Shown one piece after another: positions 307 to 13,465 of a DNA stretch of 13,465 bases (its first letter is position 1; each line of letters begins with the position of its first letter). The stretch comes from a virus, in UHGV virus genome UHGV-0042147; one strand, 5' to 3'. Both the position numbers and the translations under genes were made by a program. The notes under the pieces were generated by a model that saw only the letters and a list, made by a program, of their open reading frames with translations, did not search any database and was not told where the DNA came from.

Positions 307-1212
307 TCAATGCTTATTTGGGAGTGCTGGTTTTTTTATCGACTCTAATAGCTCGGAGGCGTTACTAATCTTTTTGTTCCCAAGGTAATTTGGCAGTTTT
401 TCCATTGCGTAATTATCGTGTAGCCATTTTCTGAACACGCCAAGTGCCTCAATAGGATAAATCCAAGCTGTTATATGCTTATTTGCAGCTGACTGCCTGT
501 AATTTTCGGGGAATAAATGTGGGTACTGCACCCTTTCCCCGAATTTCTCAGATAGCCCATTAGCTGTCCAATACTTTCCCCAGTGAATTCCAACACTTCC
601 ATCCAAAGATGTGGTGTCATCCATTGGGAATCCTCCTCCGATCAGGTTCATGGCAATGTCAGCTATCTCTCTGAATACTGCAAAATGAGTTGTCGGTATC
701 TGATCGTTTAGCTTAATCCTTGCTCTATAGTTCTCGAATGAGATATCTATTGAAGCATTTGGGTTGTAATTTGACTTTTCATAAATCATTCGCTTAAGCG
801 TGTACTCAGCCAAGCGAACAAAATTACCTATTGCGACTGACCTATCAAAATTGGTGGCATCTAGAGCGTAGTAACGGAGGATAGCCATGCAAACATAGTC
901 AGGATAAGCATGAGTTTCCACGTTTGAGCTATTTAAAACGCGAGTGTATAGCTTTTCGACGTTATGAAACCCTTTCTCAGCTAAATACGCAGCTACTTTT
1001 TGACCTCTGGGTTTGTTTTTCTCTGTGTTCCAGTTTGATGTGAACACCCTCAGTGGCGTGTCATCAATGCCGCATAACTTTGCGAGACCGTAGAGAGTTA
1101 GGTAAGGAGTTCCATCATTGAGAACGCCCATAGGAATATCATCAGAAACAACCTCTACTACAGGGAAAAGCTGCATTTGATGCAGGGATTCGCTATTGCT
1201 GTTAATCGACAT
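307..1212 (-). CDS. Hypothetical 301-aa protein at the rexAB position; N-terminal KilA-N-like domain; candidate exclusion/abortive-infection protein (BstA-like architecture)
   Basis: Uninterrupted 301-codon ORF co-oriented with and directly downstream of cI, between cI and OL. No resemblance to lambda RexA or RexB as remembered. N-terminal segment (GTPYLTLYGLAKLCGI...YPDYVCMAILRY) resembles KilA-N/APSES-type DNA-binding domains. Function is inferred from position and rough domain pattern only. Confidence 0.8.
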   Translation of the reverse strand: MSINSNSESLHQMQLFPVVEVVSDDIPMGVLNDGTPYLTLYGLAKLCGIDDTPLRVFTSNWNTEKNKPRGQKVAAYLAEKGFHNVEKLYTRVLNSSNVETHAYPDYVCMAILRYYALDATNFDRSVAIGNFVRLAEYTLKRMIYEKSNYNPNASIDISFENYRARIKLNDQIPTTHFAVFREIADIAMNLIGGGFPMDDTTSLDGSVGIHWGKYWTANGLSEKFGERVQYPHLFPENYRQSAANKHITAWIYPIEALGVFRKWLHDNYAMEKLPNYLGNKKISNASELLESIKKPALPNKH

Positions 1213-1298: not shown

Positions 1299-2088
<790 letters not shown>

Positions 2089-2906: not shown

Positions 2907-3811
2907 GTTAGCTGATTACAGGCCTCAACTGGAGGTCGTGGAGCATCGCGTGGCAGAACTCGAAGATGGCTACACTCGGACTGCAAACACACTGTTAGAA
3001 GCCGCCATGCTTTCTGGACTTACTCTACATCAGTTACTGATTGTTATGGCTGTGTGGCGCAAGACATACGGTTACAACAAAAAAATAGATTGGATCGGAA
3101 ACGAACAGTTCGCTGAACTCACTGGCATGGCACCAACCAAATGCTCTACCGCCAAAAACGAGCTTATCAGAATGGGAGTTCTCATTCAGGTGGGGCGTCA
3201 AGTTGGTATGAATACAAACATTTCCGAGTGGAAAACGAAAGTTAACGGATTCGGTAAAACATTTACCAATTCGGTAAAACAAACCTTCACCAAATCGGTA
3301 AAAAGCAATTTACCGAATCAGTCAAACACAAAAGACAATATACAAAAGACAATAAATACAAATACCCCCTTACCCCCCCCCCCNNNNNNNNNNNNNNNNN
3401 NNNNNNNNNNNNNNNNNNNNNNNNNNNNNNNNNNNNNNNNNNNNNNNNNNNNNNNNNNNNNNNNNNNNNNNNNNNNNNNNNNNNNNNNNNNNNNNNNNNN
3501 NNCGCAAGGCAGAACGAATCGACTATGAATCCTTCCTGAACGCCTACAACACCGAAGTCGGTGACAGACTGCCACACGCTGTTGCGGTCAACGAGAAACG
3601 CAAACGTCGCCTGAAGAAAATCATTCCGCAACTGAAAACGCCAAACGTGGACGGTTTCAGAGCGTATGTCAGGGCGTTTGTGCATCAGGCCAAGCCGTTT
3701 TACTTCGGAGACAACGACACTGGCTGGACGGCAGATTTTGATTACCTGCTGAGGGAAGATTCGTTAACGGGAGTACGGGAAGGGAAGTTTGCAGACAGGG
3801 GGATTGCATGA
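2893..3811 (+). CDS. O: Replication initiator O-like protein (iteron-binding N-terminal domain, P22 gene 18-like C-terminal domain), interrupted by an N run
   Basis: N-terminal part (2893-3383) matches the lambda O N-domain pattern (LEDGY.R..N.LLEA...L...Q..I..A..RKTYG.NK..D.I...Q..E.TG......[10 protein letters not shown]). The ori iterons lie inside it. After the N run a 102-codon frame (3503-3811: [39 protein letters not shown]...) ends with TGA 3809-3811, overlapping the helicase ATG at 3808. Frame across the gap cannot be verified. Confidence 0.8.
3249..3318. repeat. Replication origin iterons inside the O gene
   Basis: Direct repeats ATTCGGTAAAAC at 3249-3260 and 3269-3280, a degenerate copy AATCGGTAAAAAG at 3293-3305, and an inverted copy TTTACCGAAT at 3309-3318, at about 20-24 bp spacing. 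Followed by an A/T-rich segment with a 13-bp direct repeat ACAAAAGACAATA (3328-3340, 3342-3354). Same layout as lambda ori. Confidence 0.75.
3384..3502. other. Run of 119 N (unresolved sequence, probable assembly gap) after an 11-C homopolymer
   Basis: N characters at 3384-3502, directly after the C run at 3373-3383. Confidence 0.99.
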
Positions 3812-5184
3812 GACAGGATATCGAAGCGAGCGTTATCGGTGGCTTGCTGATTGGTGGATTAACACCAACCGCCAGCGACGTTCTGGCAACGCTGGAGCCG
3901 GAAGCGTTTTCAATTCCGCTCTACCGGAAAGCCTTCGAAGTTATCCGCAAGCAGGCGAGAAACAGAAACCTAATCGACGCGCTGATGGTTGCCGAGGCGT
4001 GCGGAGAGGAGCATTTCACGTCAATCCTGATGACCAGCAAAAACTGCCCGAGTGCCGCAAACCTGAAGGGATATGCCGGAATGGTCGCGGATAACTATCA
4101 CCGCCGTCTGGTGCTGGAAATCATGGATGAAATGCGTGAACCAATTCAGAGCGGAACCATCGACGCATCGAGTCAGGCGATGGATGAGCTTGTAAAGCGT
4201 CTTTCAGCCATCAGAAAGCCCCGTGACGAGGTTAAACCGGTACGGTTAGGGGAAATCATCACCGACTACACTGACACGCTTGACAGGCGTCTGAGGAACG
4301 GAGAAGAGTCAGATACCCTGAAGACCGGAATCGAAGAACTTGATGCCATCACCGGAGGGATGAACGCGGAAGACCTGGTGATAATCGCTGCTCGTCCTGG
4401 TATGGGGAAAACCGAACTGGCGCTGAAGATTGCCGAAGGCGTTGCAAGCCGCGTTATTCCTGGTTCTGACGTCCGGCGCGGAGTGTTGATTTTCTCGATG
4501 GAAATGAGCGCATTGCAGATTGCAGAGCGAAGCATTGCCAACGCCGGGAGGATGTCGGTTAGCGTACTGCGAAATCCTGCATCGATGGATGACGAAGGCT
4601 GGGCGCGTGTTGCTAACGGCATGAGTCAGCTTGCAGATTTGGATGTATGGGTAGTCGATGCCTCGCGGTTATCGGTAGAAGAAATTCGCTCAATCGCAGA
4701 GCGGCACAAACAGGAAAATCCAAACCTGTCACTCATCATGGCGGATTATCTTGGCCTGATTGAGAAGCCGAAAGCAGACCGCAACGACCTCGCAATTGCT
4801 CACATCTCAGGAAGCCTGAAGGCGATGGCGAAAGACCTGAAAACGCCAGTTATATCCCTAAGTCAGCTTTCGCGCGATGTTGAGAAGCGACCAAATAAAC
4901 GCCCGACAAACGCAGATTTGCGTGATTCAGGAAGCATTGAACAGGACGCAGACTCAATCATCATGCTCTATCGGGAAGCGGTATATGACGAGAACAGTAG
5001 CGCCGCGCCATTTGCTGAAATCATTGTGACGAAAAACCGTTTTGGCTCGCTTGGTACGGTTTACCAGCGGTTCTGCAACGGACACTTTGTTGCATGTGAC
5101 CAGGATGAAGCCAGACAGATTTGCACAGCATCAAATGCACCTGCTGCGCGTGGCAGACGATATGCACAAGGGGCTGACGTATGA
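3808..5184 (+). CDS. Replicative DNA helicase, DnaB family (phage P22 gene 12-like)
   Basis: 458-aa ORF. Walker A ARPGMGKT, Walker B-like [11 protein letters not shown], DnaB C-terminal motifs ([22 protein letters not shown]). Start overlaps the O stop (ATGA). P22 gp12 is also 458 aa. Confidence 0.93.
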
Positions 5185-5264
5185 CCATCTACATCACTGA
5201 GCTGATAGCAGGCCTGCTGGTAATCGCAGGCCTTTTTATTTGGGGGAGGGTAAATCGTGGCTGA
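5181..5264 (+). CDS. Tiny hydrophobic peptide (27 aa), putative
   Basis: ATG 5181 overlaps the helicase stop (ATGA). Encodes [27 protein letters not shown] with one hydrophobic helix. Too short to support without other evidence. Confidence 0.3.
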
Positions 5265-5463
5265 GTTAATTTTCTCTGCATTGAGGATTCTCGGTGCTAT
5301 GTGGATGGTGGCGACGTTCATTGTTGTTGCCAGCAGTTTTGTCCGGTTGGTAGGCGAAGGTAAAGACCTGGTGGGTGTGCTTTTCGGTAGCATTTTCCTG
5401 TGGGTGATTATCGGTGTTATGCCTGTTGTCGTAGCAAAAGTGGCGTGGCGTTTTGTGAGTTGA
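5257..5463 (+). CDS. Small membrane protein (68 aa, two predicted transmembrane helices)
   Basis: GTG start 5257, 7 nt after GGAGG (5245-5249), overlapping the stop of the 27-aa ORF. Two hydrophobic segments (ILGAMWMVATFIVVASSFV and VLFGSIFLWVIIGVMPVVVA). Stop 5461-5463 sits just before the ninB RBS. Confidence 0.45.
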   Translation: MAELIFSALRILGAMWMVATFIVVASSFVRLVGEGKDLVGVLFGSIFLWVIIGVMPVVVAKVAWRFVS

Positions 5464-5470
5464 GGTAACG

Positions 5471-5917
5471 ATGAAGCAAATATACATGCTTCGCAACGAA
5501 GCAATCAGAAATAACGCCATAGACGCAATACTCTCACTTCCCATCGACGACAAGTCACCTCATGAAGTCCACGTTAGAGAACCCAAACGCAGCAAAGCGC
5601 AGAATGACCGTATGTGGCCGATGCTGAACGATGTTTCGCGTCAGGTGCTATGGCATGGTCAACGGCTGGCGCCGGAAGACTGGAAAGACCTGTTCACTGC
5701 CCTGTGGCTTAAGACCAAAAAACTGGAGCAACGAAGTGTGCCTGGTATCGATGGTGGCGTTGTCATGCTTGGCGTGCGTACCAGCAAAATGCGAAAGGCC
5801 AGCATGACTGAGCTTATCGAAATCATGTTCTGGTTCGGCTCAGAGCGCAACGTGCGATGGAGTGATGACTCCCGGCGAGAGTATGAATGGTCACAACGAA
5901 AAGGGAAGGCTGCATGA
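5471..5917 (+). CDS. ninB: NinB (Orf-family recombination mediator)
   Basis: 148 aa. Motifs shared with lambda NinB as remembered: QN..W..L.DVSRQV.WHG, ...W...F.A, C-terminal WSD......EW....G..AA. Confidence 0.9.
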   Translation: MKQIYMLRNEAIRNNAIDAILSLPIDDKSPHEVHVREPKRSKAQNDRMWPMLNDVSRQVLWHGQRLAPEDWKDLFTALWLKTKKLEQRSVPGIDGGVVMLGVRTSKMRKASMTELIEIMFWFGSERNVRWSDDSRREYEWSQRKGKAA

Positions 5918-6441
5918 CTATCAAATCAAATACGCCAGCACACGACAAGGACTGCTGGCAAACGCCGCTTTGGCTTTTTGATGCACTGGATATTGAGTTT
6001 GGATTCTGGCTGGATTCGGCAGCGAGCGACAAAAATGCTCTGTGTGCTCACTGGCTAACTGAGGCCGACGACGCGCTCAATTCTGAGTGGGTAAGCCACG
6101 GTGCAATCTGGAATAACCCACCGTACAGCAATATCAGGCCGTGGGTGGAAAAAGCCGCTGAGCAGTGCATACAACAACGACAGACGGTAGTGATGCTTGT
6201 GCCAGAGGATATGTCTGTCGGATGGTTCAGCAAGGCTCTGGAGAGTGTTGACGAAGTTCGCATCATCACTGATGGACGGATTAATTTTATCGAACCATCG
6301 ACAGGGCTGGAGAAGAAGGGAAACAGCAAAGGCTCAATGCTGCTGATTTGGCGACCGTTCATCAGTCCTCGACGGATGTTTACCACCGTATCCAAAGCGG
6401 CATTGATGGCGATCGGGCAGGGCGTCAGGAGGGCTGCATGA
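5914..6441 (+). CDS. Phage-type DNA N6-adenine methyltransferase (Dam family, orphan)
   Basis: Start ATG 5914 overlaps the ninB stop (ATGA); RBS AAGGGAAGG at 5901-5909. N-terminal [27 protein letters not shown] and catalytic NPPY motif (WNNPPYSN). No adjacent restriction endonuclease. Occupies the lambda ninC position. Confidence 0.85.
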
Positions 6442-6620
6442 GACGACAGCGACGAAGTATCACCGACATCATCTGCGAAAACTGCAAATACCTTCCAACG
6501 AAACGCTCCAGAAATAAACGCAAGCCAATCCCAAAAGAATCTGACGTAAAAACCTTCAACTACACGGCTCACCTGTGGGATATCCGGTGGCTAAGACATC
6601 GTGCGAGGAATACAAGGTGA
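6438..6620 (+). CDS. ninE: NinE
   Basis: 60 aa [60 protein letters not shown] matches lambda NinE as remembered. ATG 6438 overlaps the methyltransferase stop. Confidence 0.8.
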
Positions 6621-6787
6621 TTGACCCAAATCGAAGTTACGAACAAGAAAGCGTCGAGCGGGCTTTAACGTGCGCTAACTGCGGTCAGAAGCTGCATGTG
6701 CTGGAAGTTCACGTGTGCGCCGATTGCTGCGCAGAACTGATGAGCGATCCGAATAGCTCAATGTACGAGGAAGAAGACGATGAATGA
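6617..6787 (+). CDS. ninF: NinF
   Basis: GTG start 6617 overlaps the ninE stop (GTGA). 56 aa with CANCGQ...HVCADCC zinc-ribbon-like cysteines and an acidic C-terminus, as in lambda NinF. Confidence 0.7.
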
Positions 6788-7502
6788 GTTAATAAATGGC
6801 AATGCCATCAAAATGACAAGCATTGAAATCGCTGAGTTGGTGGGAAGTCGTCCAGATAACGTAAAAATATCAATAGAGCGCCTGGCTAAATCTGGAGTTA
6901 TTCAACTTCCTGCATTGCAGGTTTTCGAAAAAATCAATAACTTAGGACTGCGCCGTAGTGTCGAGGCTTACGTCTTCGAAGGCGAACAAGGTAAGCGCGA
7001 CAGCATTATTGTCGTTGCCCAGTTGTCGCCGGAATTCACCGCTCGCCTTGTTGACCGTTGGCGAGAGCTTGAAGAAGCTGCGGTTAATATCCCCAAAACG
7101 TTACCGGAAGCGTTGCGCCTTGCTGCTGATCTTGCTGAGCAGAAAATGCAACTGGAAAACCAGCTCGCAATTGCCGCACCTAAAGTTGAGTTTGCCGATC
7201 GCGTTGGCGAGGCCAGCGGAATTTTGATTGGAAACTTTGCAAAGGTTGTCGGTATTGGTCCAAACAAACTGTTTGCGTGGATGCGCGATCACAAAATCCT
7301 TATTGCTTCAGGTTCCCGGCGCAATGTGCCAATGCAGGAATATATGGATCTCGGCTATTTCACAGTGAAAGAAACAGCGGTCAACACAAATCACGGAATA
7401 CAGATATCGTTCACCACAAAAATCACCGGGCGTGGTCAACAGTGGCTGACCAGAAAGCTGCTCGATAACGGAATGCTGAAAGTAACAGGGGAGGCTGCTT
7501 AA
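6780..7502 (+). CDS. Rha-family / KilAC-domain antirepressor-like protein
   Basis: 240 aa. N-terminal Rha/AntA-like segment (MTSIEIAELVGSRPDNV). C-terminal antirepressor KilAC-like segment (GILIGNFAKVVGIGPNKLFAWMRDHKILI...YMDLGYFTVKE). Start overlaps the ninF stop. Confidence 0.75.
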   Translation: MNELINGNAIKMTSIEIAELVGSRPDNVKISIERLAKSGVIQLPALQVFEKINNLGLRRSVEAYVFEGEQGKRDSIIVVAQLSPEFTARLVDRWRELEEAAVNIPKTLPEALRLAADLAEQKMQLENQLAIAAPKVEFADRVGEASGILIGNFAKVVGIGPNKLFAWMRDHKILIASGSRRNVPMQEYMDLGYFTVKETAVNTNHGIQISFTTKITGRGQQWLTRKLLDNGMLKVTGEAA

Positions 7503-7792
7503 TGGCTAATCTACGCAAAGAAGCACGCGGCAGAGAATGCCAGGTACGTATTTACGGCGTATGCAATGGTAATCCTGAAACTACAGTTCTGGCACATTAC
7601 CGGATGGCTGGAATTTGCGGAACGGGAATGAAGCCTGACGACCTGATCGGCGCATGGGCTTGTAGCGCGTGTCACGATGAAATCGACCGACGCACCCATA
7701 ATCTCGACAACAAAGACGCCAGACTTTACCACCTCGAAGGCGTGATCAGGACGCAGGCGATACTACTGAAGGAGGGGAAGATTAAGCCATGA
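7502..7792 (+). CDS. ybcO: DUF1364-family protein (ybcO-like, putative zinc-binding nuclease-like)
   Basis: 96 aa with RGRECQVR...CNGNPETTVLAH...CSACHDEIDRR. Resembles DLP12 ybcO as remembered and, like it, sits directly upstream of rusA. Start overlaps the preceding stop (TAATG). Confidence 0.7.
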   Translation: MANLRKEARGRECQVRIYGVCNGNPETTVLAHYRMAGICGTGMKPDDLIGAWACSACHDEIDRRTHNLDNKDARLYHLEGVIRTQAILLKEGKIKP

Positions 7793-8151
7793 ACGAATAT
7801 CAGTTTGTGCTTCCATACCCGCCGTCGGTGAATACCTACTGGCGAAGACGGGGAAGCCAATACTACATCAGCGATAAAGGCCAGAAATACCGAAAAGACG
7901 TTCAGCAAATCATCCGCCAACTTAAGTTAGACATTTTCACCAAATCACGACTCCGCATCAAAGTAATCGCAGACGTTCCGGACTCCCGCCGCCGCGACCT
8001 CGACAACATCCTGAAAGGTTTACTCGACTCCCTTATCCACGCCGGATTTGCGGAAGACGACGAGCAATTCGATGACATTCGCGTAATTCGTGGTGTGAAA
8101 GTACCAGGTGGAAGGCTTGGAATAAAAATCACCGAACTGGAGAACGCATGA
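7789..8151 (+). CDS. rusA: RusA Holliday-junction resolvase
   Basis: 120 aa. LPYPPSVNTYW, RRRDLDN and a C-terminal GGRLGIKITEL block characteristic of RusA. ATGA overlap with the upstream gene. Confidence 0.9.
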   Translation: MNEYQFVLPYPPSVNTYWRRRGSQYYISDKGQKYRKDVQQIIRQLKLDIFTKSRLRIKVIADVPDSRRRDLDNILKGLLDSLIHAGFAEDDEQFDDIRVIRGVKVPGGRLGIKITELENA

Positions 8152-8336
8152 ACGCCACAATTCAAACGATACCAGAGCTTCTTATCCAGACACGAGGCAA
8201 TCAGACCGAAGTGGCAAGGATGCTTTCCTGCGCAAGAGGAACAGTGCTCAAGTACAACCGAGACAGCAAAGGCGAGCGTCACGTAATAGTTAACGGCGTC
8301 CTGATGGTCAAACAGGGCAAAAGGGGAAGGCCATGA
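8148..8336 (+). CDS. ninH: NinH (Fis-like HTH protein)
   Basis: 62 aa. ...TIPELL....GNQTEVARML.C.RGTV.KY... matches the lambda NinH pattern. ATGA overlap with rusA. Confidence 0.8.
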   Translation: MNATIQTIPELLIQTRGNQTEVARMLSCARGTVLKYNRDSKGERHVIVNGVLMVKQGKRGRP

Positions 8337-8956
8337 GACTCGAAAGCGTAGCTAAATTTCATTCGCCAAAAAGCCCGATGATGAGCGACTCACCACGGGC
8401 TACGGCTTCTGACTCTCTTTCCGGTACTGATGTGATGGCTGCTATGGGGATGGCGCAATCACAAGCCGGATTCGGAATGGCTGCATTCTGCGGTAAGCAT
8501 GAACTCAGCCAGAACGACAAACAAAAGGCTATCAACTATCTGATGCAATTTGCACACAAGGTATCGGGGAAATACCGTGGCGTTGCAAAGCTTGAAGGAA
8601 ATACTAAGGCAAAGGTACTGCAAGTACTCGCAACATTCGCTTATGCGGATTATTGCCGTAGTGCCGCGACGCCGGGCGCAAGATGCAGAGATTGCCACGG
8701 TACAGGTCGTGCGGTTGATATAGCAAAAACAGAGCAGTGGGGGAGAGTTGTTGAGAAAGAGTGCGGAAGATGCAAAGGCGTCGGTTATTCAAGGATGCCA
8801 GCAAGCGCCGCATATCGCGCTGTAACGATGCTAATCCCCAACCTTACCCAACCCACCTGGTCACGCACTGTTAAGCCGCTGTATGACGCTCTGGTGGTGC
8901 AATGTCACAAAGAAGAGTCAATCGCAGACAACATTTTGAATGCGGTCACACGTTAG
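8333..8956 (+). CDS. Q: Late-gene antiterminator Q
   Basis: 207 aa beginning MRLESVAKFHSPKSPMMSDSPRATASDSL, with zinc-finger cysteines CRDCHGTG...CGRCKG. Matches lambda Q as remembered. ATGA overlap with ninH. Confidence 0.96.
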   Translation: MRLESVAKFHSPKSPMMSDSPRATASDSLSGTDVMAAMGMAQSQAGFGMAAFCGKHELSQNDKQKAINYLMQFAHKVSGKYRGVAKLEGNTKAKVLQVLATFAYADYCRSAATPGARCRDCHGTGRAVDIAKTEQWGRVVEKECGRCKGVGYSRMPASAAYRAVTMLIPNLTQPTWSRTVKPLYDALVVQCHKEESIADNILNAVTR

Positions 8957-8998
8957 CAGCATGATTGCCACGGATGGCAACATATTAACGGCATAATA

Positions 8999-9036
8999 TT
9001 GACTTTTTGAATAAAGTTGGGTAAATTTGACCCAAC
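8999..9036 (+). promoter_or_regulatory. Late promoter pR' with Q-utilisation (qut) site
   Basis: -35 TTGACT (8999-9004), -10 TAAATT (9022-9027), immediately downstream of Q as in lambda. Predicted transcript start about 9034-9035. Confidence 0.8.
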
Positions 9037-9227
9037 GATGGGTTAATTCGCTCGTTGTGGTAGTGAGATGAAAAGAGGCGGCGCTTACTACCGATTCCGC
9101 CTAGTTGGTCACTTCGACGTATCGTCTGGAACTCCAACCATCGCAGGCTGAGAGGTCTGCAAAATGCAATCCCGAAACAGTTCGCAGGTAATAGTTAGAG
9201 CCTGCATAACGGTTTCGGGATTTTTTA
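9035..9227 (+). ncRNA. pR' leader transcript (lambda 6S RNA equivalent) ending at tR'
   Basis: About 193 nt from the predicted pR' start to the terminator T-run. tR' is a long hairpin (CCCGAAAC 9171-9178 pairing with GTTTCGGG 9212-9219) followed by TTTTTT (9221-9226). The 5' end is approximate. Confidence 0.6.
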
Positions 9228-9678
9228 TATCTGTGCAACAGGTAAGAGCATTGAACCCGCAGACCTCGCGGAATTGGTGAAAGGTGCCGCGCAGTGCTCT
9301 TATCGTTGTGGTGAAGCTCAATGGCGAGCTAGCAGATAGGCGACAGTGAAAATACTAGTCATGTAGCTGACCGCCGCGCGTACTGCAATCGGCAGCGCAC
9401 CGATGGAAGCCGGTTCGATTCCGGCCGCCACAACCCAAACTGAGCCGTAGCCACTGGCTATCCTGAATTCATCAGTGATAGTTACGCTGCTGCCTTCTAC
9501 ACATGATCTTCGTGAAAGCGGGTGGCAGGAGGTCGCGCTAACAACCTCCTGCCGTTTTGCCCGTGCATATCGGTCACGAACAAATCTGATTACTAAACAC
9601 AGTAGCCTGGATTTGTTCTATCAGTAATCGACCTTATTCCTAATTAAATAGAGCAAATCCCCTTATTGGGGGTAAGAC

Positions 9679-10002
9679 ATGAAGATGCCAGAAAAACATG
9701 ACCTGTTAGCCGCGATTCTCGCGGCAAAGGAACAAGGCATCGGGGCAATCCTTGCGTTTGCAATGGCGTACCTTCGCGGCAGATATAATGGCGGTGCGTT
9801 TACAAAAACAGTAATCGACGCAACGATGTGCGCCATTATCGCCTGGTTCATTCGTGACCTTCTCGACTTCGCTGGACTAAGTAGCAATCTCGCTTATATA
9901 ACGAGCGTGTTCATCGGCTACATCGGTACTGACTCGATTGGTTCGCTTATCAAACGCTTCGCTGCTAAAAAAGCCGGAGTAGAAGATGGTGGAAATCAAT
10001 AA
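9679..10002 (+). CDS. S: Holin S (dual-start S107/S105)
   Basis: 107 aa starting MKM (Met1-Lys2-Met3 dual-start motif), three hydrophobic segments. Matches lambda S. Confidence 0.95.
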
Positions 10003-10462
10003 TCAACGTAAGGCGTTCCTCGATATGCTGGCGTGGTCAGAGGGAACTGATAACGGACGTCAAAAAACCAGAAATCATGGTTATGACGTCATTGTTGGCG
10101 GAGAGCTATTCACTGATTACTCCGATCACCCTCGCAAACTTGTCACGCTAAACCCCAAACTCAAATCAACAGCCGCAGGACGTTACCAGCTTCTTTCCCG
10201 TTGGTGGGATGCCTACCGCAAGCAGCTTGGCCTGAAAGACTTCTCTCCGAAAAGTCAGGACGCTGTGGCATTGCAGCAGATTAAGGAGCGTGGCGCTTTG
10301 CCGATGATTGATCGCGGTGATATCCGTCAGGCAATCGACCGTTGCAGCAATATCTGGGCTTCACTGCCGGGTGCTGGTTATGGCCAGTTCGAGCATAAGG
10401 CTGACAGCCTGATTGCAAAATTCAAAGAAGCAGGCGGAACGGTCAGAGAGGTTGAGGTATGA
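9986..10462 (+). CDS. R: Endolysin R (lytic transglycosylase)
   Basis: 158 aa [22 protein letters not shown]... matches lambda R. Overlaps the S 3' end by 17 nt. Confidence 0.95.
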
Positions 10463-10896
10463 GCAGAGTCACCGCGATTATTTCCGCTCTGGTTATCTGC
10501 ATCATCGTCTGCCTGTCATGGGCTGTTAATCATTACCGTGATAACGCCATCGCCTACAAAGAGCAGCGCGACAAAGCCGCATCCATCATCGCTGACATGC
10601 AGAAGCGTCAACGTGATATAGCAGAACTAGACGCCAGATACACAAAGGAGCTTGCTGATGCTAACGCGACTATCGAAAGTCTCCGTGCTGATGTTTCTGC
10701 TGGGCGTAAGCGCCTGCAAGTCGCCGCCACCTGTGCAAAGTCAACGACCGGAGCCAGCAGCATGGGCGATGGAGAAAGCCCAAGACTTACAGCAGATGCT
10801 GAACTCAATTATTACCGTCTACGAAGCGGAATCGACAGGATAACCGCGCAGGTTAACTACCTGCAGGAGTACATCAGGACTCAGTGCCTGAAATAA
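10459..10896 (+). CDS. Rz: Spanin inner-membrane subunit Rz (i-spanin)
   Basis: 145 aa. N-terminal transmembrane helix ([18 protein letters not shown]), then a coiled-coil-like region. N-terminus matches lambda Rz; middle and C-terminus diverge. ATGA overlap with R. Confidence 0.85.
10658..10843 (+). CDS. Rz1: Spanin outer-membrane lipoprotein Rz1 (o-spanin), embedded in Rz in the +1 frame
   Basis: ATG 10658 with AAGGAG 7 nt upstream (10645-10650). 61 aa with a signal peptide ending in a lipobox-like VSAC, followed by a proline-rich stretch ([12 protein letters not shown]). Lies entirely within Rz. Confidence 0.7.
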
Positions 10897-10928
10897 TTTT
10901 TTTGCAAATCACAAAGTCTATTTAATGA

Positions 10929-10951
10929 GCCTCGCGATGCGGGGCTTTTTT
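10929..10951 (+). terminator. Intrinsic terminator downstream of the lysis cassette
   Basis: 7-bp stem including one G-U pair (GCCTCGC 10929-10935 / GCGGGGC 10939-10945), 3-nt loop, followed by TTTTTT (10946-10951). Confidence 0.6.
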
Positions 10952-11100
10952 ACATCTGAATTTCACAGCGCATCTCACGCGCATATTACATCACCCGAGC
11001 CTTTCAGAAAGTTGAGCCTGAGAACTGCCGTATATGGTGGCGACCATCTCGGGGCGGCTTTTCTGTGAGACAGGCTCACTTTCTAAAAGGTAAAGACGCT

Positions 11101-11619
11101 ATGAATCATCAATTGGCTAATCTCGATTTCCGGGACATGGTGGTTGTTTCTGGTGATCGCGTGATCACAACCTCCCGCAAGGTAGCAGCTTACTTCGACA
11201 AGCAGCATCACCACATCATTCAGAAAATCGAAAAGCTAGACTGTTCGGATGAATTTCTAACCAGCAACTTTTCGCGGGTTACCTATGAACACAAGGGTAA
11301 TCAGTATGTTGAATATGAAATTTCCAAAGACGGTGCGATGTACATCATCATGTCGTTTACCGGCAAAAAAGCTGCCGCCATCAAAGAGGCGTTTATCAAA
11401 GCATTTAATTGGATGCGTGACAGGCTGATGGAGATGGCTCACTCATACCAAAGAGAGCACAACGAGTTAATGCTGGAGTTCATGAAGGAAAAGGATGTTG
11501 CCAGTATGTCAGGACGCTTGCTGAACCGCTGGGGCAGGATCAAAAAACCGCAACTCATAGCAAGAATCAAAAGGCTTGAGCAGCAGGCGCAAATATCGAT
11601 CCCCGGACTGCCAAAGTGA
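11101..11619 (+). CDS. rha: Rha-family phage regulatory protein
   Basis: Probable start ATG 11101 (MNHQLANL...). Rha N-domain pattern VVVSGDRVITTSRKVAAYFDKQHHHIIQKIEKL. Positioned after the lysis genes, as rha is in P22-like phages. The ORF track's 11065 start is an upstream in-frame alternative. Confidence 0.8.
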   Translation: MNHQLANLDFRDMVVVSGDRVITTSRKVAAYFDKQHHHIIQKIEKLDCSDEFLTSNFSRVTYEHKGNQYVEYEISKDGAMYIIMSFTGKKAAAIKEAFIKAFNWMRDRLMEMAHSYQREHNELMLEFMKEKDVASMSGRLLNRWGRIKKPQLIARIKRLEQQAQISIPGLPK

Positions 11620-11971
11620 CCATTCCAAAGCCCATCTACGGGTGGGCTTGATAATGAAACCGTGATTTACATCCCCACAATCCGGGTATGTAAAAGATAG
11701 TTCAGGCGAGAACAGATTTAACTAAATCTGTGCACCACCAGTTACGGCAGTACCACGAAGCAACCCAAGCCAGTAAGTGGGGAAATAACACTGGCAGCCA
11801 CTGAAAGATGAACCTCCAGCCTTATGGCAAAAAAGATTCTTTGTGGTGGCGGACTGATGGAAAGACATCGGTTATTGCAGAGGCCATTCAATGAGTGGTC
11901 TCGACAATGGCTTATACCCTGCACGGGATAACTTAACTGATATCCCTTTTAACGGATAAACGGAGCCAACA

Positions 11972-12214
11972 ATGGCAGAGATTATTCCCATGACTGAAGA
12001 ACAGAAATTCCAGCTAGAGATTTACAAACTGGTCATGAACCAGAACGCAGCAGCAGAGGAAGCATTTCAGTTCATTGGTACTGACGAGCTGAAGCTTGAG
12101 CTATTCAAAATTCACTTCCAGTCAGGCGGCGCTAATTCGGATATCACGACCCGCACTATCGAAGCGGTGCGTAAATCGAAGGAAGCGTTAGACCTGTTCA
12201 CTACCGGAGCATAA
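11972..12214 (+). CDS. Hypothetical protein (80 aa) upstream of terminase
   Basis: ATG 11972 with GGAG at 11961-11964. Acidic, helical-looking product. No family recognised. Confidence 0.5.
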   Translation: MAEIIPMTEEQKFQLEIYKLVMNQNAAAEEAFQFIGTDELKLELFKIHFQSGGANSDITTRTIEAVRKSKEALDLFTTGA

Positions 12215-12293
12215 ACATGGCAACTCAAGGTTTCGACAACCCATCCAAATTCCGCGATGAATGGGATAAGCAAGCAGAAGGGAAATAATCAAT

Positions 12294-12719
12294 ATGGCGA
12301 CTGAGAAAAAGAACGTCGGTCGCCCTTCGGATTACCTGCCGGAGGTGGCTGATGATATCTGTGCGCTGCTTGCCTCCGGGGAAAGTCTGGTTAAGGTTTG
12401 CAAGCGCCCCGGCATGCCAGCAAAGGCTACTGTATTTCGCTGGCTGTCAGAGCATGACGAATTTAGAGACAAGTACGCGAAGGCAACTGAGGCACGAGCT
12501 GATTCTATTTTCGAAGAGATATTCGAAATTGCTGACAATGCGATTCCAGATGCTGCTGAGGTGGCAAAGGCAAGACTTCGCGTTGATACCCGCAAATGGG
12601 CGCTGGCCCGAATGAATCCACGTAAGTATGGCGACAAGGTAACTAATGAGCTTGTCGGCAAAGACGGCGGCGCAATCCAGATTGAAACATCACCGATGAG
12701 CACTCTATTCGGAAAATGA
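12294..12719 (+). CDS. Terminase small subunit (TerS)
   Basis: 141 aa. N-terminal [26 protein letters not shown]...TVFRWL is the HTH pattern of a common phage small-terminase family. ATGA overlap with the large subunit. Not lambda Nu1. Confidence 0.8.
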
Positions 12720-13438
12720 CCTCGATTAATCCTATCTTTGAACCGTTCATTGAGGCGCATCGCTACAAAGTCGCCAAAGGCGGTCGAGGTAGCGGTAAAT
12801 CATGGGCAATTGCGAGGCTGCTTGTTGAAGCGGCGCGTCGGCAGCCGGTGCGCATCCTCTGTGCTCGTGAACTGCAAAACAGTATCAGTGATTCGGTAAT
12901 CCGGCTGCTTGAAGATACCATCGAGCGTGAAGGGTATTCAGCTGAGTTTGAAATTCAGCGTTCAATGATTCGTCATCTCGGAACGAATGCTGAATTCATG
13001 TTCTACGGCATCAAAAACAACCCGACGAAGATTAAATCGCTCGAAGGTATTGATATCTGCTGGGTGGAAGAAGCGGAAGCGGTAACGAAGGAATCATGGG
13101 ATATCCTGATCCCAACCATCCGCAAGCCATTTTCCGAAATATGGGTGAGCTTCAACCCGAAAAACATCCTCGACGATACCTATCAGCGATTCGTAGTAAA
13201 CCCTCCCGATGATATTTGTCTGCTGACGGTGAACTACACCGACAACCCGCACTTTCCTGAAGTTCTCCGTCTGGAGATGGAAGAGTGTAAACGCAGAAAC
13301 CCGACACTGTATCGTCACATCTGGCTTGGTGAGCCAGTAAGCGCAAGTGATATGGCAATCATCAAACGTGAATGGCTTGAAGCTGCAACTGATGCGCACA
13401 AGCAACTCGGATGGAAAGCGAAGGGTGCGGTTGTTTGA
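12716..13438 (+). CDS. Terminase large subunit, ATPase domain only (240 aa; truncated, split or frameshifted)
   Basis: Walker [10 protein letters not shown], Walker B/catalytic Glu in ICWVEEAEA, coupling motif SFNP. The ORF stops at 13436-13438 after about 240 aa with no nuclease domain. The window ends 27 nt later. Confidence 0.8.
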
Positions 13439-13465
13439 AGTGGTCAACAAAAACTGGCCACCGAG

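What the first reader, a model, noticed from the sequence alone, without database searches (positions are those of the whole stretch)
6780..7502. Rha/KilAC antirepressor-like gene inside the nin region, plus a second Rha-domain gene after the lysis cassette (11101-11619)
Two paralogous Rha-type regulators at two positions is unusual for a lambda-immunity phage, and neither is present in lambda itself. The nin-region copy carries a C-terminal KilAC-like domain typical of antirepressors, so it could act on this or a co-resident prophage repressor.
Basis: partly seen in the sequence, partly recalled or inferred. Interest (0 to 1): 0.4.

Follow-up and report, generated by a model that had tools for sequence, protein, structure and literature searches.

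The report
Known phage genes roi and rha
The two genes are real but ordinary: they are this prophage's copies of roi and rha, two long-known lambdoid-phage DNA-binding regulators that sit in their usual places and often occur together.

Summary
Both ORFs exist exactly as described. ORF 6780-7502 is roi: 89% amino-acid identity to HK97 Roi, ~91% to HK022 Roi, in the same ninF-to-hkbD/rusA slot. It has a strong C-terminal ANT/KilAC domain and a divergent N-terminal Rha-type winged helix; the window allele scores below the Pfam cut-off, a sister allele passes it. ORF 11101-11619 is rha (Phage_pRha + ORF11CD3, 45% identity to P22 Rha), in P22's slot between Rz and the terminase genes.

The "unusual" claim fails. 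HK97, whose cI is 99% identical to this one, carries roi. Phage Gally has both genes in these slots; JEP4 and CUS-3 also carry both. 13 of 30 sampled roi contigs have a Rha gene after Rz.

The two proteins share only a distant N-domain. "Antirepressor" is a domain label, not a shown activity. I found no LexA box or own promoter, roi alleles assort independently of immunity type, and cI keeps its self-cleavage domain.

One addition. roi alleles differ almost only in a cassette encoding the recognition helix and wing. Inside it lie a position-conserved dyad (6909-6921) and, 17 bp away, the window's only perfect IHF core (6932-6944), kept at synonymous sites in 12 alleles.

Verdict: already known, low interest.

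The parts
6780..7502 (+). roi gene (240 aa): Rha-type winged-helix N-domain, long linker helix, KilAC C-domain
   Evidence: ORF. 89% aa identity to HK97 Roi and 91% to HK022 Roi. phrog_63 'anti-repressor Ant' E = 1.6e-96. Flanked by ninF (6575-6787) and ybcO/hkbD (7502-7792), as in HK97.
6813..7076 (+). Roi N-terminal Rha-type winged helix-turn-helix (aa 12-99)
6841..6975 (+). Hypervariable allele cassette of roi (aa 22-63: recognition helix plus wing), flanked by near-identical DNA
   Evidence: DNA alignment of the window, HK022, HK97 and Gally genes. Six alleles among 131 distinct roi genes from 184 loci. Mapped onto the AF2 secondary structure.
6909..6921 (.). 13-bp perfect dyad CCTGCAtTGCAGG inside roi; candidate operator for a dimeric protein, possibly Roi itself
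   Evidence: Sequence. Same position in other alleles with compensatory changes: CCTCAAaTTGAGG, ACGCCAaTGGCGT, GCTCAAaTTGAGC. Mean 4.83 of 6 pairs over 12 alleles, the top of 178 offsets (background mean 1.55, sd 0.67).
6922..6931 (.). TTTTCGAAAA, an A/T-rich palindromic spacer between the dyad and the IHF core
   Evidence: Conserved as TTTTC(C)GAAA in most IHF-bearing alleles, even where the encoded amino acids differ (VFE versus FSE).
6932..6944 (+). IHF core consensus AATCAATAACTTA (WATCAANNNNTTR) inside roi
   Evidence: The only perfect match in the 13.5-kb window and the only one in the 12.7-kb HK022 locus, at the same gene position. Present in 12 alleles, with Ile always ATC and Leu always TTA or TTG. 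Lost together with the dyad in alleles E and L213.
7155..7463 (+). Roi C-terminal ANT/KilAC domain (aa 126-228)
   Evidence: Pfam PF03374 112.8 bits, E = 1.3e-32. Identical or nearly so in all E. coli roi alleles.
8999..9027 (+). pR'-like late promoter (TTGACT-17-TAAATT) downstream of Q; the likely source of transcripts that reach rha
   Evidence: Promoter scan. Q gene at 8333-8956.
10927..10947 (+). Intrinsic terminator hairpin plus T-run after Rz, upstream of rha; conserved in HK97, HK022, P22 and Gally
   Evidence: Terminator scan; alignment A5.
11065..11100 (+). Conserved leader and ribosome-binding junction of the post-lysis cargo slot
   Evidence: The first 41-47 nt of the query 11065-11619 (about 11065-11111, so the match runs a few bases past the ATG into rha) are 98-100% identical in phages whose gene at this slot differs: rha in phi80 and HK639, KilA-N in HK620, GIY-YIG in HK106, HNH in Dewey. 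See also alignment A5.
11101..11619 (+). rha gene (172 aa): Rha winged-helix N-domain (aa 23-106, nt 11167-11418) plus ORF11CD3 C-domain (aa 115-168, nt 11443-11604)
   Evidence: Pfam and NCBIfam. phrog_518 'Rha-like transcriptional regulator' E = 1e-79. 45% aa identity to P22 Rha. 99.5-99.8% nt identity to the Rha genes of phages APC_JM3.2, Gally and JEP4. Same slot as P22 rha, between Rz and orf80/DUF2560.

Best explanation
The two genes are this prophage's orthologues of roi (HK022/HK97) and rha (P22/phi80).

Shown here:
- Both proteins carry an N-terminal Rha-family winged helix-turn-helix.
- Roi adds a long helix and a KilAC domain. Rha adds an ORF11CD3 domain.
- Both genes sit in the standard lambdoid slots. 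roi lies in the nin region, inside the delayed-early pR operon. rha lies between the lysis cassette and the packaging genes, inside the Q-dependent late operon, behind a read-through terminator.

Inferred mechanism:
- Both are sequence-specific DNA-binding regulators made only after derepression, and their activity is tied to host IHF.
- For Roi, the likely target is inside its own gene: a dyad at 6909-6921 followed 17 bp later by an IHF core at 6932-6944.
- As I recall the 1996 abstract, HK022 Roi binds a site within roi next to an IHF site, IHF stabilises that binding, and without IHF the protein blocks lytic growth.
- The part of Roi that varies between alleles is the recognition helix and wing, and the DNA encoding it also carries the dyad. 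Protein specificity and site could therefore be exchanged together as one cassette.
- The KilAC domain more probably contacts a protein. By analogy with Listeria AriS it may damp RecA/SOS. A cI-specific role is less likely.
- Rha is the late-operon counterpart. Published work reports that it harms phage growth when IHF is absent and that IHF regulates the rha gene.

Neither gene is shown to be an antirepressor.
For: Orthology and position.

Domains.

Intragenic site:
- Unique perfect IHF core at the same gene position in the window and in HK022.
- 12 alleles keep it, with invariant ATC and TTR codons.
- The dyad 17 bp upstream is the best of 178 offsets and changes by compensatory substitutions.
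- Dyad and IHF core are lost together in allele E and in L213.

Operon context: no own sigma-70 consensus promoter or LexA box; pR' at 8999-9027; terminator at 10927-10947.

Literature:
- Roi 'implicated in phage lytic growth' (PMC3430580); 'DNA-binding protein' (PMC4587872).
- In AriS the KilAC domain inhibits SOS when overexpressed, and the N-domain (AntA/B, Bro-N or pRha) regulates phage genes (PMC9043618).
- roi and rha are listed among the five transcriptional regulators of phage Gally (PMC9928086).
Against: - The primary papers (PMC178163, PMC177009) are not held, so I could not check that the published Roi and IHF sites are the dyad and core identified here. My account of their content is from memory of the abstracts.
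- The window's N-domain allele is below the Pfam gathering score.
- Part of the dyad signal could come from coding constraint: a conserved Pro codon CCN opposite G-rich codons. In the 40-50% identical homologues it drops to 3-4 of 6 pairs.
- No IHF consensus lies upstream of rha in this window.
- The promoter scan is a simple consensus scan and can miss weak or activated promoters.
- AriS is from a Firmicute phage, and its SOS effect appeared only on overexpression.
Confidence: 0.7

Rival explanations
1. Roi, and perhaps Rha, is a true antirepressor. It would bind and inactivate this prophage's lambda-type CI, or the repressor of a co-resident prophage, as P22 Ant, P1 Ant1 or the Gifsy antirepressors do.
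For: The KilAC domain is shared with P1 Ant1 and KilA (stated in PMC9043618). Databases label these proteins 'anti-repressor'. Trans-acting antirepressors do coordinate prophage induction in Salmonella (PMC3121763), and P22 Ant acts on lambda CI (PMC3064807).
Against: - No LexA box or separate consensus promoter. roi lies deep in the pR operon, so it would be made only after CI is already gone.
- roi N-domain alleles and the invariant KilAC domain assort freely with immunity types. HK97 and the window share a 99% identical cI but carry different roi alleles.
- cI keeps its Peptidase_S24 self-cleavage domain, so induction needs no antirepressor.
- The tested KilAC domain inhibits SOS when overexpressed rather than promoting induction (PMC9043618).
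- The phi24B Ant that promotes induction resembles P22 Ant and is a different gene from the adjacent roi (PMC3064807, PMC3430580).
Confidence: 0.12
2. Roi is an AriS-like dual-function regulator. Its main biological role would be to damp the host RecA/SOS response through the KilAC domain, aligning induction among co-resident prophages, while the Rha N-domain tunes its own phage's genes.
For: Roi has the AriS-family architecture: a variable N-domain (AntA/B, Bro-N or pRha) plus a C-terminal KilAC domain (PMC9043618). The KilAC domain is essentially invariant across roi alleles while the N-domain varies, as expected if it contacts a conserved host target.
Against: The evidence is homology at Pfam-domain level only, from a Firmicute system. 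The SOS effect of AriS was not seen at native expression levels (PMC9043618). No E. coli data exist, and roi expression was unaffected in the Gally macrophage study (PMC9928086).
Confidence: 0.15
3. One or both genes are accessory ('moron') cargo that protects the lysogen against other phages (exclusion or abortive infection), rather than regulators of their own phage.
For: rha occupies a cargo slot whose content is swapped between phages (rha, KilA-N, GIY-YIG, HNH) behind a conserved leader. The window also carries BstA, a KilA-N-type defence protein, next to cI.
Against: There are no significant PADLOC hits for either protein. No independent promoter was found. The published phenotypes concern the phage's own growth.
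Confidence: 0.05

Closest known systems
Roi of coliphages HK022 and HK97 (Clerget & Boccard 1996, J Bacteriol 178:4077)
   Same: Same gene. 89% aa identity to HK97 Roi and about 91% to HK022 Roi, and the 3' three-quarters is nearly identical at DNA level. Same length and the same slot after ninF and before hkbD/rusA/ninH/Q. Same IHF core at gene nt 153.
   Different: A different allele of the 135-nt cassette encoding the recognition helix and wing (aa 22-63). The window's dyad is perfect at 6 of 6 pairs, against 5 of 6 in HK022 and HK97. His25, nearly invariant in the family, is Pro here.
Rha of P22 (orf201) and phi80 (Henthorn & Friedman 1995, J Bacteriol 177:3185)
   Same: Phage_pRha plus ORF11CD3 architecture. 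45% identity to P22 Rha, with the C-terminal 60 residues about 80% identical. Same slot between Rz/Rz1 and orf80 (DUF2560) and the small terminase.
   Different: Lacks the 23-residue N-terminal extension of P22 Rha, and the winged-helix part is a divergent allele. It is 99.5-100% identical to the Rha of phages Gally, JEP4 and APC_JM3.2.
AriS of Listeria phage phi10403S and its family (Azulay et al. 2022, PMC9043618)
   Same: [quoted passage not shown]
   Different: Related only at Pfam-domain level, in a different host phylum. SOS inhibition has not been tested for any Roi.
P22 Ant, P1 Ant1 and Gifsy antirepressors (functional class)
   Same: Shared 'antirepressor' annotation. P1 Ant1 shares the KilAC domain.
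   Different: Those genes have their own controlled promoters (Mnt/Arc, C4 RNA or LexA). roi and rha show none, and no repressor binding is known for either.

Membership tests
Roi (HK022/HK97 orthologue group) | Full-length high identity to HK022/HK97 Roi | tested here: met
   215 of 241 residues (89%) identical to HK97 Roi, E = 1e-158. 91% to HK022 Roi.
Roi (HK022/HK97 orthologue group) | Location in the nin region between P and Q, after ninF | tested here: met
   The order ninB-dam-ninE-ninF-roi-ybcO-rusA-ninH-Q is the same as in HK97.
Roi (HK022/HK97 orthologue group) | IHF site, with a linked Roi site, inside the roi gene | tested here: inconclusive
   A perfect IHF core sits at the same gene position as in HK022, with a conserved dyad 17 bp upstream. 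Binding itself was not tested, and the published site coordinates could not be read.
Roi (HK022/HK97 orthologue group) | Inhibits phage lytic growth in IHF-deficient hosts | not testable with these tools
   A genetic phenotype, known for HK022 only from citations (PMC3430580, PMC4587872).
Pfam Phage_pRha (PF09669), for the Roi N-domain | Score at or above the gathering threshold (29.9 bits) | tested here: not met
   Window allele 20.9 bits, E = 5.5e-4, although the full model length is aligned.
Pfam Phage_pRha (PF09669), for the Roi N-domain | Homology shown through intermediate sequences | tested here: met
   The Gally allele of the same gene scores 36.7 bits. 59 of 61 full-length homologues hit the family, best E = 8.8e-18. 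phrog_63 aligns both the Roi and Rha N-domains.
Pfam ANT/KilAC (PF03374), for the Roi C-domain | Score at or above the gathering threshold (25.3 bits) | tested here: met
   112.8 bits, residues 126-228 against model positions 1-106 of 108.
Rha (P22/phi80 type) | Phage_pRha domain above threshold, plus TIGR02681 | tested here: met
   84.1 bits against a cut-off of 29.9. TIGR02681 76 bits against 45.95.
Rha (P22/phi80 type) | C-terminal ORF11CD3 domain, as in P22 Rha | tested here: met
   84 bits against a cut-off of 25. The C-terminus aligns with P22 Rha.
Rha (P22/phi80 type) | Late-operon position between the lysis genes and the packaging genes | tested here: met
   Window order Rz-rha-DUF2560-TerS-TerL, against P22 order 15/Rz1-rha-orf80-gene 3.
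Rha (P22/phi80 type) | Blocks phage growth in IHF mutants; gene regulated by IHF | not testable with these tools
   Phenotype known from the literature (PMC4936722). No IHF consensus lies upstream of rha in this window.
Antirepressor (functional class: P22 Ant, P1 Ant1, Gifsy GfoA/GftA) | Binds and inactivates a prophage repressor | not testable with these tools
   Needs biochemistry or an induction assay.
Antirepressor (functional class: P22 Ant, P1 Ant1, Gifsy GfoA/GftA) | Own regulated promoter allowing expression while the prophage is repressed (for example a LexA box) | tested here: not met
   No CTGT-N8-ACAG match without mismatch anywhere, and none next to either gene. No sigma-70 consensus promoter upstream of either gene. 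These are simple scans, so this is weak negative evidence.
Antirepressor (functional class: P22 Ant, P1 Ant1, Gifsy GfoA/GftA) | Association between protein allele and immunity type | tested here: not met
   Lambda-type cI occurs with roi alleles A, C, D and F, and every allele occurs with other cI types.
AriS-like dual-function regulators | Variable N-domain (AntA/B, Bro-N or pRha) plus a C-terminal KilAC domain | tested here: met
   family definition in PMC9043618.
AriS-like dual-function regulators | The KilAC domain inhibits the SOS response | not testable with these tools
   Needs an SOS reporter assay in E. coli.

The most novel reading that the evidence does not exclude
roi carries a self-contained, exchangeable specificity cassette. 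The 135 bp that encode the recognition helix and wing of Roi's winged helix would also contain Roi's own operator (the dyad at 6909-6921) and an IHF site (6932-6944). Protein specificity and binding site would then co-vary and move together between phages. Combined with an invariant KilAC domain that may damp RecA/SOS as in AriS, roi alleles could set phage-specific, IHF-gated control of lytic development in polylysogens.
Probability: 0.2. Interest if true: 0.5.

Novelty: already known. Interest (0 to 1): 0.15.

Why it matters
As stated, the finding matters little. It re-identifies two lambdoid accessory regulators described in 1995-96, in an arrangement already deposited for phages Gally, JEP4 and CUS-3 and for many E. 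coli prophages.

Three points are still useful:
- The 'anti-repressor' label that databases attach to these proteins is a domain name, not a demonstrated activity. It should not be used to predict prophage cross-induction.
- The molecular role of Roi and Rha is still unresolved after 30 years. Roi-type proteins form a very large family: 6467 clusters at 50% identity.
- The conserved dyad-plus-IHF element inside the allele cassette gives a concrete, cheap target for binding experiments.

Tried and rejected
- Reading the primary papers (PMC178163, PMC177009) and Iyer et al. 2002 (PMC88810): none is held.
- Sequence search of the PDB for both proteins: nothing below E = 0.3.
- NCBIfam for Roi: no family.
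- PADLOC for both proteins: no meaningful hit.
- LexA-box search: no perfect match, and the 1-mismatch hits are at chance level and not next to either gene.
- IHF consensus with one mismatch across the window: at chance level, and none upstream of rha.
- Genome-contig scan for more roi alleles: only 4 loci.
- Correlation between palindrome sequence and recognition-helix sequence: no clear rule. Alleles A and D share the inner palindrome but differ in the helix, and allele E has an A-like helix but no palindrome. I therefore do not claim a recognition code.
- The dyad as an RNA hairpin: rejected, because a 1-nt loop is not feasible.
- Recent paralogy of the two genes: rejected.
- Rfam and tRNA scans of the window: nothing.

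Full report
**What is in the window**

The window is the early-right, nin, lysis and packaging-start part of a lambdoid, P22-like prophage. Gene order from the Pfam and PADLOC scans:
- bstA (307-1212, minus strand)
- cI (1299-2012, minus strand), cro, cII
- O, and a DnaB-type P
- ninB, dam, ninE, ninF
- ORF 6780-7502
- ybcO/hkbD, rusA, ninH, Q
- S, R, Rz
- ORF 11101-11619
- a DUF2560 gene, an Sf6-type small terminase and the large terminase

The cI-cro segment is 98.2% nucleotide-identical to lambda and 100% to phage CL707, so 'lambda immunity' is correct. Positions 3384-3502 are a run of N inside gene O. Window 3503-13465 is 100% identical to IMG/VR contig UViG_648276656_000002. The immunity region and the roi/rha region are therefore linked only through a scaffold gap.

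**Checking the observation**

Both ORFs exist at the stated coordinates.
- ORF 6780-7502 (240 aa) has a strong C-terminal ANT/KilAC domain: 112.8 bits against a cut-off of 25.3.
- Its N-terminal Phage_pRha match spans the whole model but is sub-threshold: 20.9 bits against 29.9.
- ORF 11101-11619 (172 aa) has clear Phage_pRha (84.1 bits) and ORF11CD3 (84.0 bits) domains, and it matches TIGR02681.
- PHROGs place them in phrog_63 ('anti-repressor Ant') and phrog_518 ('Rha-like transcriptional regulator'). The phrog_63 profile aligns both N-domains to the same positions.

The weak Rha call for the first protein is secured through intermediates:
- The Gally allele of the same gene scores 36.7 bits.
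- Of 61 diverse full-length homologues at 35-95% identity, 59 hit Phage_pRha and all 61 hit ANT.

BLASTP finds no similarity between the two N-domains. They are distant domain homologues with unrelated C-termini, not recent paralogues.

**Identity of the genes**

ORF 6780-7502 is roi.
- It is 89% identical in protein to HK97 Roi and 91% to HK022 Roi.
- It sits in the same slot after ninF and before the HNH/ybcO gene.
- 219 phage records match it at DNA level, many annotated 'roi: DNA-binding protein Roi'.

ORF 11101-11619 is rha.
- It is 99.5-99.8% nucleotide-identical to the Rha genes of phages APC_JM3.2, Gally and JEP4.
- It is 45% identical in protein to P22 Rha.
- It occupies P22's rha slot, between Rz/Rz1 and orf80 (DUF2560) and the small terminase.

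Neither gene has a relative in lambda.

**Is the arrangement unusual? No.**
- HK97 has a cI 99% identical to this one and carries roi.
- Phage Gally has both genes in the same two slots, and its authors list roi and rha among its five regulators (PMC9928086).
- JEP4 and CUS-3 also match both genes.
- 34 complete E. coli genomes cover at least 80% of window 5400-12300. The top listed hits have both a 'KilAC domain-containing protein' and a 'Rha family transcriptional regulator' under the match, though several listed hits lack one of the two.
- Among roi-bearing loci with at least 5.5 kb downstream, 30 have Rz. Of these, 13 carry a Rha gene right after it, 9 a KilA-N gene and 8 something else.
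- Lambda-type cI is found with roi alleles A, C, D and F.
- The post-lysis position is a cargo slot. The terminator, an intergenic block and a leader/RBS of about 40 nt are conserved while the gene behind them changes.

**What the literature says**
- Roi of HK022 is 'implicated in phage lytic growth' and is described as a DNA-binding protein. [quoted passage not shown] - I could not open the primary papers. From my own memory of the 1996 abstract, Roi binds a site inside its own gene next to an IHF site, and IHF stabilises the binding.
- The only functional dissection of a KilAC domain that I found is Listeria AriS. When overexpressed, the KilAC domain inhibits the SOS response, probably through RecA. 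The N-domain, which can be AntA/B, Bro-N or pRha, regulates phage genes (PMC9043618).

**Anatomy of roi**

Aligning the window, HK022, HK97 and Gally genes shows near-identity everywhere except gene nt 62-195 (window 6841-6975), which is highly divergent. Across 184 roi loci (131 distinct genes) there are six alleles of this patch.

An AlphaFold model built on 61 sequences (mean pLDDT 82) gives:
- an N-terminal winged helix: strand 11-13, helices 14-21 and 25-38, wing strands 45-52 and 58-67
- a long helix, 108-144
- a compact C-domain

**A cis element inside the variable patch**

The only perfect match to the IHF core WATCAANNNNTTR in the whole window is at 6932-6944, inside roi. The only match in the 12.7-kb HK022 locus is at the same gene position.

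Seventeen bp upstream of the core start lies the centre of a perfect 13-bp dyad, CCTGCAtTGCAGG (6909-6921). Other alleles keep a dyad at that position with different sequences:
- Gally: CCTCAAaTTGAGG
- L020: CCCCCAaTGGTGG (5 of 6 pairs)
- HK022: 5 of 6 pairs
- a 58% identical metagenomic homologue: ACGCCAaTGGCGT
- a Symbiopectobacterium homologue: GCTCAAaTTGAGC

Across these six dyad sequences, four of the six pair positions show more than one Watson-Crick pair type, that is, changes on both sides. The encoded amino acids also differ (PALQ, PQIE, PPMV, TPMA).

I aligned 12 IHF-bearing alleles on the core, including six 40-50% identical homologues fetched for the purpose. The results:
- The dyad centred at -17 averages 4.83 of 6 pairs. 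It is the best of 178 offsets, against a background mean of 1.55 (sd 0.67) and a next-best value of 3.42.
- The Ile codon of the core is ATC in 12 of 12 alleles.
- The Leu codon is TTA or TTG in 12 of 12, never CTN.

The E-type allele and L213 lack both the dyad and the core. A further homologue, L211, lacks the core but has a differently spaced inverted repeat.

Caveats:
- The alleles are related, so they are not independent samples.
- A conserved Pro codon contributes to the outer pairs.
- In the distant homologues the dyad is only 3-4 of 6 pairs.
- I found no simple rule linking helix sequence to dyad sequence.

**Mechanism**

Shown:
- Both proteins are Rha-type winged-helix proteins.
- roi lies in the pR operon. 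rha lies in the pR' late operon (pR'-like TTGACT-17-TAAATT at 8999-9027), behind a terminator at 10927-10947.
- Neither gene has a consensus promoter or a LexA box of its own.

Inferred:
- Both are made only after derepression and act as DNA-binding regulators tied to IHF.
- Roi probably binds the intragenic dyad together with IHF.
- The KilAC domain, which is invariant among alleles, probably contacts a conserved protein partner.

**The antirepressor reading**

This reading rests only on the domain name. Against it:
- The expression logic above.
- The free assortment of roi alleles with immunity types.
- The intact S24 self-cleavage domain of cI.
- The AriS result.

It is not excluded, because a broad-spectrum antirepressor made late could still act on co-resident prophages.

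**Verdict**

The 'unusual' claim and the antirepressor inference are not supported. The genes and their arrangement are already known. The intragenic dyad-plus-IHF cassette is a small, testable addition.

Noticed in passing
window 307-1212 (-): A 301-aa ORF in the rexAB position downstream of cI. It has no Pfam hit but is a full-length BstA abortive-infection defence protein (PADLOC PDLC02356, E = 1.3e-105).
   Followed up: partly
window 3384-3502: A 119-nt run of N inside replication gene O, i.e. a scaffold gap. The N-terminal part of O is 93% identical to P22 gp18 and the C-terminal part is 100% identical to HK97 O. The immunity region and the roi/rha region are therefore joined only by scaffolding, and O looks falsely truncated (211-aa ORF).
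   Followed up: yes
window 3503-13465: 100% identical over 9963 bp to IMG/VR contig IMGVR_UViG_648276656_000002. The right end of the window coincides with the end of that contig.
   Followed up: yes
window 10897-11111; L002, L003, L004, L001: The intergenic region after Rz is conserved across HK97, HK022, P22 and Gally whatever gene follows (rha, KilA-N, GIY-YIG or HNH). It holds the terminator, a GCGCA-N6-GCGCA block and an AAAAGGTAAA-ACG leader. This looks like a cargo slot with conserved recombination boundaries.
   Followed up: partly
L134 (IMGVR_UViG_2778261535_000012): Here roi is deleted in frame. Its first 22 codons are fused directly to the start of the downstream ybcO/hkbD gene (…AELVG-NLRKEARGRECQ…).
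   Followed up: no
L153 and L069: roi alleles with a frameshift (an extra A in the A-run just before the IHF core, L153) or a stop codon (TTCTAA in place of TTCGAA, L069). Both lesions lie exactly in the TTTTCGAAAAAA tract, so this tract may be a mutational hotspot that inactivates roi.
   Followed up: no
window 6852-6854 (Roi residue 25): The window allele has Pro at a position where at least 90% of 61 family members have His (R24-H25, at the start of the recognition helix).
   Followed up: no
window 8999-9036: The pR'-like promoter TTGACT-17-TAAATT, identical in its hexamers to lambda pR' as I recall it, overlaps a minus-strand hairpin. No tRNA genes or Rfam families lie between Q and S.
   Followed up: partly
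P0016 and P0017 (304 aa): Some E. coli Roi relatives carry an extra N-terminal segment of about 64 residues with a partial second Phage_pRha/HVO_A0114 match. This is either a duplication of the HTH region or an upstream start.
   Followed up: no
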